Shown: positions 57,764-59,758 of the stretch, piece by piece
Layout of the letters: each line of letters opens with the position of its first letter
Numbering within the stretch: position 1 is the stretch's first letter
Assembly: GCA_963557785.1 (NCBI GenBank)
Contig: CAUWBF010000005.1
Coordinates: 10,312-74,311, forward strand
Source of the DNA: an uncultured Clostridia bacterium
GTDB taxonomy: Bacteria; Bacillota; Clostridia; TANB77; CAG-508
Reading direction: 5' to 3'
Length of the DNA stretch: 64,000 nucleotides
The notes under the pieces: generated by a model
What the model saw: only the letters and a program-made list of their open reading frames with translations
The model's database searches: none
What the model was told of the DNA's origin: nothing
Program-made: the position numbers and the translations under genes

Positions 57764-58612
57764 TTAGTGAAGTTCTTCATTTTTTGTATTTTTGTATAAG
57801 ATAAGATTTGCAGTAATTATTAATATAATTCCTATTATTAAAACTACAATTCCGTTAGTTAATATATTATTCATAATACTATGTAATATATTTCTTAATG
57901 TTATTGAAAATCCATTATTAAGAACTGTTATGTAGTCTATTTTTACTTTTGAATTCACAATAAAATTAACTACTATGTAAAATATACCTGTTGATGATAA
58001 TACTATTCCTATTTGTGCAATTCCTCTTAATATATTTTTCATATTTAATAATAGTAGTAATATTACTAGAATAACATCTACAATTATTGCTACTGTTTTT
58101 ATTTTTGATGAATATCTTATAATTTTAGTTAATACTTTATTTATACTGGTTTCATATTTGGTATGAATAATTGTATCTTTATATTCCTCTGTAATCTTAT
58201 TTATAAATTGAGTAATTGATTTCTTTGTAGAATCTGATATTTTTTGTCCAGATAGAGAATTATATATATTTTTTTCTAGTCTTTCTTCTATTTTACTAAT
58301 ATCGACTTCTGTAACTTCTTTGTTATTATAAATATTATTAATTATTTGTATTGTATCAGATTTAATATCCTCTTCTGATATTATACCTTTAATTACATCT
58401 TCATCTAGTCCTGATTGATATATATAATTTTCAAAGTTTGATTCTACTTGATTATATACATTATTATAATAATTAGTTTCTTCTATTTTTCCTAAAATAT
58501 AGTCTTTATTTAGAATCGTAGAAGTTAATACTTTTACTGCAAGTGTCAATATTATAGATATAATTAAAAGAATTATTACTATGTATTTTATAATATTTGA
58601 TATTATTTTCAC
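57764..58612 (-). CDS. Hypothetical polytopic membrane protein, GTG start
   Basis: 282 aa. N-terminal TM, long charged coiled region, 3-4 C-terminal TM helices. ggaggag SD before GTG. Downstream of, and co-oriented with, the sortase/substrate pair. Confidence 0.5.
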   Translation of the reverse strand: MKIISNIIKYIVIILLIISIILTLAVKVLTSTILNKDYILGKIEETNYYNNVYNQVESNFENYIYQSGLDEDVIKGIISEEDIKSDTIQIINNIYNNKEVTEVDISKIEERLEKNIYNSLSGQKISDSTKKSITQFINKITEEYKDTIIHTKYETSINKVLTKIIRYSSKIKTVAIIVDVILVILLLLLNMKNILRGIAQIGIVLSSTGIFYIVVNFIVNSKVKIDYITVLNNGFSITLRNILHSIMNNILTNGIVVLIIGIILIITANLILYKNTKNEELH

Positions 58613-58624
58613 TTTATTCTCCTC

Positions 58625-59236
58625 CTACTTTTCTAATTCTGCATATACAACATATCTTTGAGTTGCATAACCCACATTGTTAAATGGATAGCATGTATAT
58701 ACCATTAAAATTTCTTTTTCTTTTTGAATTGGCACTTTGTCTAATTCTGTTTCTTTAATTAATTGCATATCATATATTTTATATTTATATACTCCATAAC
58801 TTGTTGTTACTGTTATCTCATTTCCTACTTGTAGCTCAGAAAATCTTCTAAATACCTTTCTAGAGTTATGTCCCATATATACTATACTTCCACCTTCTCC
58901 TGGGAAGTAACTACCACTTGAATGTCCTACACCTTTTTTTAAGATCTCAAGAGTATCTCCAAAGTATACTGGTAGGTTTACATCAATTTTAGGTATTTCA
59001 ATTGTTGCATATTGCGTTCCATATTCTGGGTAGTTTATTAATTTTTTTTCTTGTTCATTAATTACTGTTTCAGCTGTTTCTTCTTTATTACTAATATCTA
59101 TTGATACTTTATTTACCAATGAAAAGGCTTCACTTATTTTTTGCCCATAAAGTAAGTTTATGCCTTCCAACAAAATTGTTATAATTAAAAAAGCAACTAT
59201 TACGTCTATAATAGTTGCTTTTAATACTTTAACCAA
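58625..59236 (-). CDS. Sortase (small, N-terminally anchored), TTG start
   Basis: Catalytic TLxTC-like motif MVYTCYP near the C-terminus, conserved His in IVYMGHNS, Arg downstream. 203 aa. Confidence 0.75.
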   Translation of the reverse strand: MVKVLKATIIDVIVAFLIITILLEGINLLYGQKISEAFSLVNKVSIDISNKEETAETVINEQEKKLINYPEYGTQYATIEIPKIDVNLPVYFGDTLEILKKGVGHSSGSYFPGEGGSIVYMGHNSRKVFRRFSELQVGNEITVTTSYGVYKYKIYDMQLIKETELDKVPIQKEKEILMVYTCYPFNNVGYATQRYVVYAELEK

Positions 59237-59242
59237 TTTAAA

Positions 59243-59758
59243 TTATCCTTCTATTGATAATCTTTTTTTTGCTACTACTGCAACAAGGGCAATTATTGCT
59301 AATGAAGAAACAACTACTATTGCTGTGTTACTTCCTGTGTAAGCTAATTTTCCATTGTTTGATGTAACTGTTTCTATTAATTTTCCATCTTTATATATTT
59401 CTACTGAAGATGTTCCGAATTTTAATGTTAATCCAGCTACGCTTGCAGCTTCGTTAGCTATTGTTTTTAATTCAGATTTTTGTTCAGCTGTTAGATCTTT
59501 ATAAGATGTTACTCCTGCATTTTCCATAACTTTTACAGCTTCATCAGCTTTAGCTACTATACTATTAGCTTCTGCATCTGTAACAGGATTGTCAGCTAAA
59601 TATCTTTCGATTTTAACTTTATCTGCTGATGTCATTCCATATTTTGATCCTTTATTATATAGAGTATCTGCTAATTCAGATGATGTTGTTGCATATGAGC
59701 TTACAGCTACCATAGCTACCATAACAAATGTAATTGCTATTGTTAATATTTTTTTCAT
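59243..59758 (-). CDS. Small secreted protein with C-terminal sortase sorting signal (LAYTG + hydrophobic segment + KKR)
   Basis: Signal peptide, about 120-aa Ala/Lys/Glu-rich domain, then LAYTGSNTAIVVVSSLAIIALVAVVAKKRLSIEG: a tripartite cell-wall sorting signal with the non-canonical pentapeptide LAYTG. 6 nt upstream of the sortase gene. Confidence 0.7.
   Translation of the reverse strand: MKKILTIAITFVMVAMVAVSSYATTSSELADTLYNKGSKYGMTSADKVKIERYLADNPVTDAEANSIVAKADEAVKVMENAGVTSYKDLTAEQKSELKTIANEAASVAGLTLKFGTSSVEIYKDGKLIETVTSNNGKLAYTGSNTAIVVVSSLAIIALVAVVAKKRLSIEG

What the first reader, a model, noticed from the sequence alone, without database searches (positions are those of the whole stretch)
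57764..59758. Sortase with adjacent small substrate carrying a non-canonical LAYTG sorting motif, plus a co-transcribed polytopic membrane protein
The 171-aa secreted protein ends with LAYTG followed by a hydrophobic segment and a KKR tail, a complete cell-wall sorting signal. Its pentapeptide differs from the LPXTG (class A), NPQTN (class B) and LPNTA (class D) motifs that I recall. It sits 6 nt upstream of a small sortase with TTG start. A 282-aa membrane protein of unknown function follows 12 nt later. This looks like a dedicated sortase-substrate module, possibly sporulation or envelope related given the ytfIJ neighbours, with unusual motif specificity.
Basis: partly seen in the sequence, partly recalled or inferred. 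Interest (0 to 1): 0.5.

Follow-up and report, generated by a model that had tools for sequence, protein, structure and literature searches.

The report
Dedicated sortase cassette with LxYTG substrate
A three-gene unit in an uncultured low-GC gut Clostridia genome encodes a small secreted protein with an LAYTG wall-anchoring signal, its own sortase and a membrane protein; the unit is conserved in dozens of related genomes, usually inside capsule/exopolysaccharide gene clusters rather than next to sporulation genes.

Summary
On the minus strand lie a 171-aa secreted protein ending LAYTG + hydrophobic segment + KKR, a 203-aa sortase 6 nt later, and a 282-aa four-helix membrane protein 12 nt after that.

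The order substrate-sortase-membrane protein recurs in 18/18 genome loci and in 48 of 51 metagenome loci (44 with the substrate detected). Across 170 distinct substrates the signal is K-L-x-Y-T-G-N: LAYTG in 89%, otherwise V/S/Q/L/K/P at position 2. One LPYTG homologue passes the LPXTG-anchor model.

The sortase has the His-Cys-Arg triad. It scores nearest class D but below every class cut-off, and it is not class E, the known LAXTG class.

The ytfJ neighbourhood is specific to this lineage. In 44/58 loci the cassette sits in a Wzx/Wzy-type polysaccharide locus, just upstream of Wzz, BY-kinase-like and CpsB genes. A sigma-A-type extended -10 promoter precedes the substrate gene in all 38 distinct upstream regions scanned.

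Two additions:
- A 13-bp hairpin in sortase codons 6-16 is nearly invariant, with frozen synonymous sites. One lineage has a classical terminator plus promoter instead, so it is probably an attenuator.
- The membrane protein's model resembles Lit but lacks Lit's catalytic histidines.

Verdict: a real, uncurated variant of a known kind. Cleavage is inferred, not shown.

The parts
59794..59822 (-). Sigma-A-type promoter of the cassette: TTGAAA, 17-nt spacer, TG-extended TATACT. It ends 35 nt upstream of the substrate start codon.
   Evidence: It is the best promoter-like site in the region (10/12 matches plus TG). An equivalent TGnTATAAT promoter lies 24-47 nt upstream of the substrate start in all 38 distinct upstream regions scanned (one lacks the TG), including loci embedded in polysaccharide clusters.
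59243..59758 (-). Substrate gene (171 aa). It encodes a signal-peptide-like N-terminus (residues 1-23), a mature domain of about 112 aa (four helices plus a small three-strand sheet in the model), and a C-terminal sorting signal.
59246..59347 (-). Sorting signal: LAYTG (59333-59347), a hydrophobic segment, then KKR followed by LSIEG.
   Evidence: Read directly. Consensus G-K-L-A-Y-T-G-N-N in 170 distinct homologues: LAYTG 151, LVYTG 10, LSYTG 2, LQYTG 2, and LLYTG, FKYTG, FVQTG, LPYTG and LVQTG 1 each. The LPYTG homologue passes TIGR01167 (21.5 > 15.9); the window protein scores 11.9.
59189..59222 (-). Conserved RNA hairpin inside sortase codons 6-16: AAAGCAACUAUUA, 6-nt loop, UAAUAGUUGCUUU, then a U-rich tail. 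It is a probable attenuator or partial terminator between the substrate and sortase genes.
   Evidence: Flagged as terminator-like. MFE is -19.3 kcal/mol with z = -5.05. It is present in 60 of the 70 sequences then held, at the same offset, and in the distant cassettes fetched later, L070/L071 and L073. 99.6% of cells are paired, and stem substitutions are G.U wobbles apart from one mismatch at each end of the stem. All 7 conserved codons use one codon in every sequence, against 9/83 elsewhere in the gene (Fisher p = 1.5e-6). It occurs once in the window and once per locus, and not in viral contigs. Lineage L048/L050/L058 lacks it and instead has an intergenic terminator-like hairpin (-16.9 kcal/mol, z = -5.5) plus an extended -10 promoter for the sortase.
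58625..59236 (-). Sortase (203 aa, TTG start, weak RBS GAAGGA). It has an N-terminal membrane anchor and a catalytic domain with H123, C182 and R194.
   Evidence: Pfam Sortase 99.4 bits and TIGR01076 101 bits, both above cut-off. Class D models rank first but fall below cut-off: 129/140 and 120/165. The best solved relative is C. perfringens SrtD, 4d70 (6.5e-17). The triad is conserved in at least 98% of 121 sequences.
57764..58612 (-). Membrane protein (282 aa, GTG start, RBS AGGAGG). It has TM1, an extracytoplasmic helical cap of about 115 aa, and three further TM helices. Its model has a Lit-like fold; its function is unknown.
57746..57778 (-). Intrinsic terminator that closes the cassette. 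It overlaps the stop codon of the membrane-protein gene.
   Evidence: A 15-pair stem followed by a T-run. The next gene, a Fur-family regulator, has its own promoter-like site at 57735..57707.

Best explanation
This is a self-contained surface-display cassette.

Expression (inferred). A strong vegetative (sigma-A-type, extended -10) promoter drives the substrate gene. A conserved hairpin in the first 50 nt of the sortase ORF, together with the TTG start and a weak RBS, lets only a fraction of expression continue into the sortase and membrane-protein genes. The substrate is therefore made in excess over the enzyme.

Anchoring (inferred from sortase chemistry). The 171-aa precursor is exported by Sec and held in the membrane by its C-terminal hydrophobic segment and KKR tail. 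The adjacent membrane-anchored sortase (Cys182, His123, Arg194) cleaves it between Thr141 and Gly142 of LAYTG. The resulting thioacyl intermediate is resolved by the peptidoglycan precursor amine, leaving a helical protein of about 118 aa covalently attached to the wall.

Recognition. It rests on L-x-Y-T-G-N rather than on Pro or Ala at position 2.

Third gene. The four-helix membrane protein with a Lit-like model is an obligate partner within this clade, with a role that cannot yet be specified. The most likely roles are an accessory that positions or regulates the sortase, or one that acts on the envelope polymer.

Biological role. It is most likely tied to capsule or exopolysaccharide assembly on vegetative cells, not to sporulation.

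Shown here: gene structure, conservation of the cassette, the motif, the promoter and the hairpin, the catalytic triad, and the neighbourhood statistics. Inferred: cleavage and wall linkage, attenuation by the hairpin, and any link to the polysaccharide.
For: The genes are packed tightly, with one promoter and one terminator flanking them. The sortase domain is above the family cut-offs and the triad is conserved. The tripartite sorting signal is conserved in 170/170 distinct homologues, and a P2 = Pro homologue passes TIGR01167. The order substrate-sortase-membrane protein holds in 18/18 and 48/51 loci, and in distant cassettes carrying LVQTG and LLYTG. The closest solved enzyme, CpSrtD, is likewise encoded beside its own LPQTGS substrate (PMC4498605). 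A TGnTATAAT promoter is conserved upstream of the substrate gene. Hairpin evidence. In L048-type loci the hairpin is replaced by an intergenic terminator plus a promoter. Wzz, BY-kinase-like and CpsB genes follow the cassette in 44/58 loci. Wzx-like, EpsG, GT2, UDP-glucose dehydrogenase and epimerase genes lie upstream, and Bac_transf plus glycosyltransferases follow it in L070.
Against: There is no biochemical evidence of cleavage or wall linkage. The motif directly follows the last predicted strand of the folded domain, and the double-domain relative P0001 keeps an internal GKLVYTG, so part of the motif's conservation could be structural. The sortase is below every class-specific cut-off. 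CpSrtD, its closest solved relative, does not act on LAETG (PMC4498605). The hairpin shows no compensatory double substitutions, so RNA structure is inferred from wobble-only changes and frozen synonymous sites. In the window itself no polysaccharide genes lie within 64 kb. Some members of the wider membrane-protein family are not next to a sortase (L072 and L074/L075).
Confidence: 0.7

Rival explanations
1. This is a sporulation-specific class D sortase system, as in Bacillus anthracis SrtC with BasH/BasI. On this reading the cassette is expressed during sporulation and anchors the protein to the forespore or mother-cell envelope.
For: Class D models are the best-scoring class. ytfJ lies immediately upstream in the window. 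Reviews associate class D sortases with spore formation (PMC8225981, PMC4498605).
Against: The ytfJ neighbourhood is shared only with L001. The other 17 genome loci and the metagenome loci have different flanks, mostly polysaccharide genes. The conserved promoter is sigma-A-like with an extended -10. Class D cut-offs are not met, and the motif is not LPxTA.
Confidence: 0.08
2. The 171-aa protein is simply a C-terminally membrane-anchored protein that is never cleaved. On this reading the conserved KLxYTGN is a structural or juxtamembrane element, and the sortase acts on other proteins, for example the canonical LPKTG proteins encoded nearby in some loci.
For: The motif abuts the last predicted beta-strand. 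P0001 retains an internal GKLVYTG between its two domain copies. LPKTG proteins lie directly upstream of the cassette in L011 and in the L048-type loci. Locus L062 keeps the sortase without this substrate gene.
Against: The substrate gene sits immediately upstream of the sortase in every locus that holds enough upstream DNA except L062. The invariant T-G, followed by a hydrophobic stretch and a basic tail, is exactly the architecture of a sorting signal. The LPYTG variant passes the LPXTG-anchor model. No other candidate substrate exists in the 64-kb window.
Confidence: 0.12
3. The cassette is a pilus or fibre assembly system. On this reading the sortase polymerises the small protein head-to-tail through a lysine, as class C sortases do.
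For: Class C is the second-best class model (84 bits). The substrate appears to be abundantly expressed, and a tandem-domain variant exists.
Against: The class C cut-off is far from met (84 against 160). No lysine is conserved across the whole family: K94, K98 and K137 are lost in L070, L073 or the GTLAYTG lineages. The fold is helical, not an Ig-like pilin fold. There is only one substrate gene and no tip or base pilin.
Confidence: 0.04
4. The conserved 13 + 6 + 13 inverted repeat is a DNA site, either an operator for a dimeric regulator or a recombinase core site, rather than an RNA hairpin.
For: The arm sequence is almost invariant with no compensatory changes, which resembles sequence-specific recognition. 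The 13-6-13 geometry resembles the core sites of tyrosine recombinases (my own knowledge).
Against: There is one copy per locus and per 64-kb window, so no partner site exists for recombination. It is absent from viral contigs. Five of the seven stem substitutions are A-to-G changes that keep G.U pairing on the sense strand only; the other two are mismatches at the two ends of the stem. The lineage that lacks it has a classical terminator plus promoter at the same place.
Confidence: 0.1

Closest known systems
Clostridium perfringens sortase D (CpSrtD, PDB 4d70) with its adjacent LPQTGS cell-wall-anchor protein (PMC4498605)
   Same: It is the best solved-structure relative (E 6.5e-17). Both are small membrane-anchored clostridial sortases nearest class D, and both are encoded in an operon with a single dedicated substrate.
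   Different: CpSrtD prefers LPQTGS and shows no activity on LAETG. Here position 2 is Ala in 89% of substrates and is variable, and Tyr is fixed at position 3. This cassette also has an obligate third gene, an intragenic hairpin and a polysaccharide-locus context. None of these is described for CpSrtD.
Class E sortases of Actinobacteria (Streptomyces SrtE1/E2, Corynebacterium SrtE/SrtF) recognising LAXTG (PMC5148588, PMC8225981)
   Same: The pentapeptide LAYTG fits LAXTG.
   Different: The class E model scores 63 bits against a cut-off of 160. The host is a 26.6% GC Clostridia genome, not a high-GC actinobacterium. Position 2 is not fixed as Ala. Class E enzymes are housekeeping sortases with many substrates, whereas this one is paired with a single adjacent substrate.
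Bacillus class D sortases (B. anthracis SrtC with BasH/BasI; B. subtilis YhcS with YhcR), which use LPxTA-type motifs and act during sporulation (PMC8225981; partly my own knowledge)
   Same: This is the nearest class by HMM, and these are also dedicated sortases with few substrates.
   Different: The cut-offs are not met (129/140 and 120/165). The motif ends in TG, not TA. There is no conserved sporulation context, and the promoter is sigma-A-like.
Lit, lipoprotein intramolecular transacylase (PDB 7b0o/7b0p; PMC8275575)
   Different: Foldseek E-values are not significant (0.07-0.33). There is no meaningful Pfam Lit match (1 of 113 members at E 0.004). Lit's catalytic His85/His153 and Phe157 have no conserved counterparts, since no His is conserved in the family. 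It therefore works differently, or is not an enzyme.
Single-target sortase systems defined by comparative genomics, for example class GN 'marine' sortase TIGR03784 with its cognate target (my own knowledge)
   Same: The logic is the same: one sortase, one adjacent cognate target with a variant motif, and conserved accessory genes.
   Different: It is a different sortase clade (50 bits against a cut-off of 158), a different target family and a different taxon.

Membership tests
Sortase superfamily (PF04203 / TIGR01076) | Domain model score above the curated cut-off | tested here: met
   PF04203 scores 99.4 bits (cut-off 26.6) and TIGR01076 scores 101.4 bits (cut-off 39.35).
Sortase superfamily (PF04203 / TIGR01076) | Catalytic His-Cys-Arg triad (TxC motif) | tested here: met
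   H123 (GHN), C182 (YTCYP) and R194 (QRY) are conserved in at least 98% of 121 sequences.
Sortase superfamily (PF04203 / TIGR01076) | Transpeptidase activity on a sorting signal | not testable with these tools
   This needs a peptide cleavage or transpeptidation assay.
Class D sortase (NF033746; NF058671 SrtD, LPxTATN-specific) | Class model score above the curated cut-off | tested here: not met
   119.6 against 165 and 129.3 against 140. The same holds for four other cassette sortases, including P0332, which NCBI names 'class D sortase'. Class D is nevertheless always the top-ranking class.
Class D sortase (NF033746; NF058671 SrtD, LPxTATN-specific) | LPxTA(T/N)-type or LPQTGS-type substrate motif | tested here: not met
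   The motif is L-[AVSQLKP]-[YQ]-T-G-[NS].
Class D sortase (NF033746; NF058671 SrtD, LPxTATN-specific) | Sporulation-linked expression or context | tested here: inconclusive
   ytfJ is adjacent only in the window and L001. The conserved promoter is sigma-A-like. No expression data are available.
Class E sortase (NF033747) | Class model score above the curated cut-off | tested here: not met
   63.4 bits against 160.
Class E sortase (NF033747) | LAXTG substrate motif | tested here: met
   LAYTG occurs in the window and in 151/170 homologues, but position 2 is not fixed.
Class C (pilin-polymerising) sortase (NF033745) | Class model cut-off, and a pilin substrate with a conserved nucleophile Lys | tested here: not met
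   84.3 bits against 160. No Lys is conserved across the family. The modelled fold is helical.
LPXTG-type cell-wall sorting signal (TIGR01167) | Pentapeptide ending in TG, then a hydrophobic segment, then a basic tail at the C-terminus | tested here: met
   LAYTG, then SNTAIVVVSSLAIIALVAVVA, then KKR. The same holds in 170/170 homologues.
LPXTG-type cell-wall sorting signal (TIGR01167) | Model score above the cut-off | tested here: not met
   The window protein scores 11.9 against 15.9. The homologue in L032 with LPYTG scores 21.5 and passes.
Lit (PF07314, lipoprotein intramolecular transacylase) | Four-TM fold with an extracytoplasmic cap | tested here: inconclusive
Lit (PF07314, lipoprotein intramolecular transacylase) | Sequence model match and the catalytic His85/His153 dyad | tested here: not met
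   Only 1 of 113 members gives a weak Lit hit (E 0.004). No His is invariant or nearly invariant. Lit residues are taken from PMC8275575.
Intrinsic (Rho-independent) terminator or attenuator | Stable stem-loop followed by a U-rich tract on the transcribed strand | tested here: met
   The scan flags 59222..59189. Folding gives -19.3 kcal/mol with z = -5.05. U-rich tails follow the stem in the loci.
Intrinsic (Rho-independent) terminator or attenuator | Termination or 3' ends at the site in vivo or in vitro | not testable with these tools
   This needs Term-seq, metatranscriptome coverage or in vitro transcription.

The most novel reading that the evidence does not exclude
The cassette could be an integral, previously unrecognised part of capsule/EPS assembly in gut Clostridia. 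On this reading the sortase-anchored helical protein is the wall-bound acceptor or anchor for the polysaccharide; it takes the place that an LCP (CpsA) gene occupies at the head of streptococcal cps loci. The membrane protein with the Lit-like model would be the transferase or presenter that couples polymer and protein. The hyper-conserved hairpin would be a sequence-specific attenuation or antitermination switch gating read-through into the sortase and the downstream Wzz, BY-kinase and glycosyltransferase genes.
Probability: 0.1. Interest if true: 0.75.

Novelty: new variant of a known kind. Interest (0 to 1): 0.45.

Why it matters
Sortase specificity classes were defined on cultured Bacilli and Actinobacteria. 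This cassette shows a large clade of uncultured human-gut Clostridia using a class-D-like enzyme with an L-x-Y-T-G-N signal. That signal tolerates Ala, Val, Ser or Pro at the position usually treated as diagnostic.

The cassette pairs the enzyme with two protein families that have no Pfam or NCBIfam model. One of them, the membrane protein, has about 1500 cluster representatives.

Its usual position inside capsule/EPS loci gives a concrete, testable link between sortase anchoring and surface polysaccharide in gut commensals.

The intragenic hairpin is a clean example of RNA-level selection overriding codon choice, and it comes with a natural control lineage.

An enzyme accepting LxYTGN could also be useful as an orthogonal tool for sortase-mediated ligation.

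Tried and rejected
- A full-text search for 'LAYTG' found nothing relevant. Searches linking sortases to EPS clusters found nothing specific either.
- The afdb50 fold library was unavailable.
- Rfam gave no match in the window or the cassette.
- Pfam, both on single members and family-wide, gave only noise for the membrane protein.
- The hairpin is not a dispersed repeat, an integration site or a recombination site. It occurs once per locus and never in viral contigs.
- The pilin-polymer reading was rejected: there is no conserved Lys, the fold is helical, and the class C score is low.
- Lit-type catalysis by the membrane protein was rejected: no histidines are conserved.
- The sporulation reading was rejected as the general explanation, because the ytfJ neighbourhood is lineage-specific.
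- The terminator scan did not flag the L048 intergenic hairpin, because its stem runs into the U-tract. Folding confirmed it.
- No second sortase and no other sorting-signal protein was found in the 64-kb window. The rest of the genome could not be searched.
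Full report
**Observation**

The region holds three co-directional ORFs on the minus strand:
- a 171-aa protein at 59243-59758
- a 203-aa protein at 58625-59236, with a TTG start, 6 nt downstream
- a 282-aa protein at 57764-58612, with a GTG start, 12 nt further on

The first protein begins with a signal-peptide-like segment. It ends ...GKLAYTGSNTAIVVVSSLAIIALVAVVAKKRLSIEG, with LAYTG encoded at 59333-59347.

The second protein is a sortase. Pfam PF04203 scores 99.4 bits and TIGR01076 scores 101 bits, both above cut-off. 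H123, C182 and R194 are conserved in at least 98% of 121 relatives.

The third protein has no significant family match.

The best sigma-70-like site in the region is TTGAAA-17-TG-TATACT at 59822..59794, upstream of the first gene. A terminator at 57778..57746 follows the third gene.

ytfJ upstream is confirmed, but the 'ytfI' ORF has no family hit. The window is 26.6% GC and the cassette 25.2%, so there is no compositional anomaly. The window holds no second sortase and no other protein with a sorting signal.

**Is the module real?**

The substrate has 854 database relatives, none with a name or Pfam model.

A scan of one genome per species found 18 loci, all from uncultured human-gut Clostridia MAGs. 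Every one has substrate, sortase and membrane protein in the same order. The recA-recX-scpA-ytfI-ytfJ flank is shared only with L001.

A metagenome scan seeded with the membrane protein gave 51 loci, of which 48 have the sortase directly upstream. Two of the rest are contigs that end there, and one (L069) is a chimeric fragment. The substrate gene was detected in 44 of them. In the others the contig ends first, except L062, where a dockerin protein sits upstream.

Distant members of the membrane-protein family (about 28% identity) also sit in cassettes. L070/L071 have an LVQTG substrate and L073 has LLYTG.

**The motif**

In 170 distinct substrates the pentapeptides are:

| Pentapeptide | Count |
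|---|---|
| LAYTG | 151 |
| LVYTG | 10 |
| LSYTG | 2 |
| LQYTG | 2 |
| LLYTG, FKYTG, FVQTG, LPYTG, LVQTG | 1 each |

The preceding residue is K in 166 and the following residue is N in 151. Position 2 is therefore permissive. The conserved features are Leu, Tyr (rarely Gln), Thr-Gly and the K/N flanks.

The LPYTG homologue passes the LPXTG-anchor model TIGR01167 (21.5 against a cut-off of 15.9). The window protein scores 11.9. This shows the segment is a genuine sorting-signal homologue.

No paper in the library mentions LAYTG as a motif. LAXTG, however, is the established class E motif (PMC8225981, PMC5148588).

**Sortase class**

| NCBIfam model | Score (bits) | Cut-off (bits) |
|---|---|---|
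| SrtD, LPxTATN-specific | 129.3 | 140 |
| class D | 119.6 | 165 |
| class C | 84.3 | 160 |
| class E | 63.4 | 160 |

Four other cassette sortases rank the same way. They include P0332 (79% identical), which NCBI names 'class D sortase' yet which also scores below cut-off.

The best solved relative is C. perfringens SrtD, 4d70. It prefers LPQTGS, is inactive on LAETG, and is itself encoded beside an LPQTGS protein (PMC4498605).

I therefore call this enzyme class-D-like and unclassified. It is not class E.

**Context**

In 44 of 58 loci the membrane-protein gene is followed, on the same strand and with small gaps, by three genes: a Wzz-domain protein, a P-loop protein of the BY-kinase type (CbiA, AAA_31 and ParA hits) and CpsB/CapC. 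Upstream lie Wzx-like, EpsG, GT2/Caps_synth, UDP-glucose dehydrogenase, epimerase, phosphomannose isomerase and FrhB-type genes.

In L070 the cassette is followed by Bac_transf, glycosyltransferases and a pyruvyl transferase.

No LCP gene was seen among the recurring genes within about 3 kb. The window has no homologue of these polysaccharide genes. The window and L001 are thus the exception, and the sporulation inference does not generalise.

**Expression signals**

All 38 distinct upstream regions scanned have a TATAAT-like -10 hexamer with a TTG-type -35, ending 24-47 nt upstream of the substrate start codon. All but one carry the TG extension. A strong RBS follows. This holds even for loci inside polysaccharide clusters.

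**The hairpin (new)**

The terminator scan flagged 59222..59189, inside sortase codons 6-16. The same element, AAAGCAACTATTA-N6-TAATAGTTGCTTT followed by a U-rich tail, is present in 60 of the 70 sequences then held, at the same offset. It is also present in L018 with a shorter stem, and in the distant cassettes L070/L071 and L073.

- It folds at -19.3 kcal/mol with z = -5.05.
- Across 39 distinct sequences, 99.6% of cells pair. Eight pairs never vary and four vary only through G.U. None shows a compensatory double change.
- All 7 conserved codons in the arms use a single codon in every sequence, including non-preferred ACT, GTT, ATT and GCT. Elsewhere in the gene this is true of only 9 of 83 conserved codons (Fisher p = 1.5e-6).
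- The four third-codon positions of the 5' arm pair with third-codon positions of the 3' arm.
- The element occurs once in the window and once per locus, and is absent from viral contigs. Rfam has no match.

L048, L050 and L058 lack the hairpin and have a different sortase N-terminus. In its place they carry an intergenic hairpin flanked by A and U tracts directly after the substrate stop (-16.9 kcal/mol, z = -5.5), then a TGnTATAAT promoter and an RBS for the sortase. The simple terminator scan missed this hairpin.

This substitution is the best available evidence that the conserved hairpin limits read-through from the substrate gene into the sortase gene.

**Substrate and membrane-protein structures**

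The substrate model has a core pLDDT of about 75. It shows four helices and a small three-stranded sheet, with no convincing PDB match. P0001 is a tandem duplication of the domain.

Lit's catalytic His85/His153 (PMC8275575) have no conserved counterparts. The nearly invariant residues of the wider family are Y49, S67, G68, D86, Y95, I116, Y144 and G209. Pfam Lit matches 1 of 113 members, at E 0.004.

The family is large: 1538 representatives at E <= 1e-3 and 299 at E <= 1e-30. Some members stand alone, for example L072, and L074/L075 between rho and gpr.

**Mechanism and verdict**

The most likely mechanism has four steps:
1. Vegetative transcription of an abundant substrate mRNA.
2. Attenuated read-through into the sortase and membrane-protein genes.
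3. Sec export of the precursor and its retention by the C-terminal anchor.
4. Cleavage between Thr141 and Gly142, and transfer to the peptidoglycan precursor.

The cleavage chemistry is inferred from family membership, not demonstrated. The link to polysaccharide assembly rests on gene neighbourhood only.

The finding is a genuine, widely conserved and uncurated cassette. It is a new variant of a known kind (a dedicated sortase-substrate pair), with two unexpected additions: the hairpin and the partner whose model resembles Lit.

Noticed in passing
window 59189-59222 (-); the same element in L001-L067, L070, L071 and L073: A hyper-conserved 13-bp stem and 6-nt loop lie inside sortase codons 6-16. 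Synonymous sites are frozen and the only internal stem changes are G.U wobbles. It is a probable attenuator between the substrate and sortase genes.
   Followed up: yes
L048 3236-3340 (also L050, L058): This lineage lacks the intragenic hairpin. Instead it has an intergenic hairpin with A and U tracts after the substrate stop, a TGnTATAAT promoter, and a sortase with a different N-terminus.
   Followed up: yes
L002-L066, downstream of the membrane-protein gene (e.g. L002 5377-7762); L070 6006-10861: In 44/58 loci the cassette is followed by Wzz, BY-kinase-like and CpsB genes and preceded by Wzx-like, EpsG and glycosyltransferase genes. The window has none of these within 64 kb.
   Followed up: yes
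L011 2381-3160; L048 1794-2624 (five loci in that cluster): Secreted proteins with Thr/Lys/Glu-rich repeats and a canonical LPKTG sorting signal are encoded immediately upstream of the LAYTG gene. The same sortase may serve both, or a housekeeping sortase may exist elsewhere.
   Followed up: partly
L062 582-4478: This is the only locus where the sortase, with its hairpin, is not preceded by the substrate gene. An 854-aa dockerin-bearing protein lies upstream, and the membrane-protein ORF is interrupted at 170 aa.
   Followed up: partly
P0001, P0008 (289 aa): These are tandem-duplicated substrate variants. The first copy ends in an internal GKLVYTG with no membrane segment. One carries a precomputed Pfam LTXXQ (PF07813) label.
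   Followed up: partly
L074 3795-4817, L075 2668-3690, L072 1268-2119: Members of the membrane-protein family occur without any sortase. In L074/L075 the gene lies between rho and the germination protease gene gpr, with yabQ and divIC nearby. The wider family therefore has a function independent of sortase.
   Followed up: partly
It overlaps ytfJ by 56 nt and is only 49% identical to its counterpart in L001, whereas its neighbours are 76-96% identical.
   Followed up: no
window 56711-57735 (-): A Fur-family regulator (PerR-like by context) with its own promoter-like site is followed by a rubrerythrin gene. This is a separate oxidative-stress unit immediately downstream of the cassette terminator.
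   Followed up: no
L069 3820-4100: The contig switches from low-GC to high-GC sequence in the middle of a truncated copy of the membrane-protein gene. It is probably an assembly chimera.
   Followed up: no
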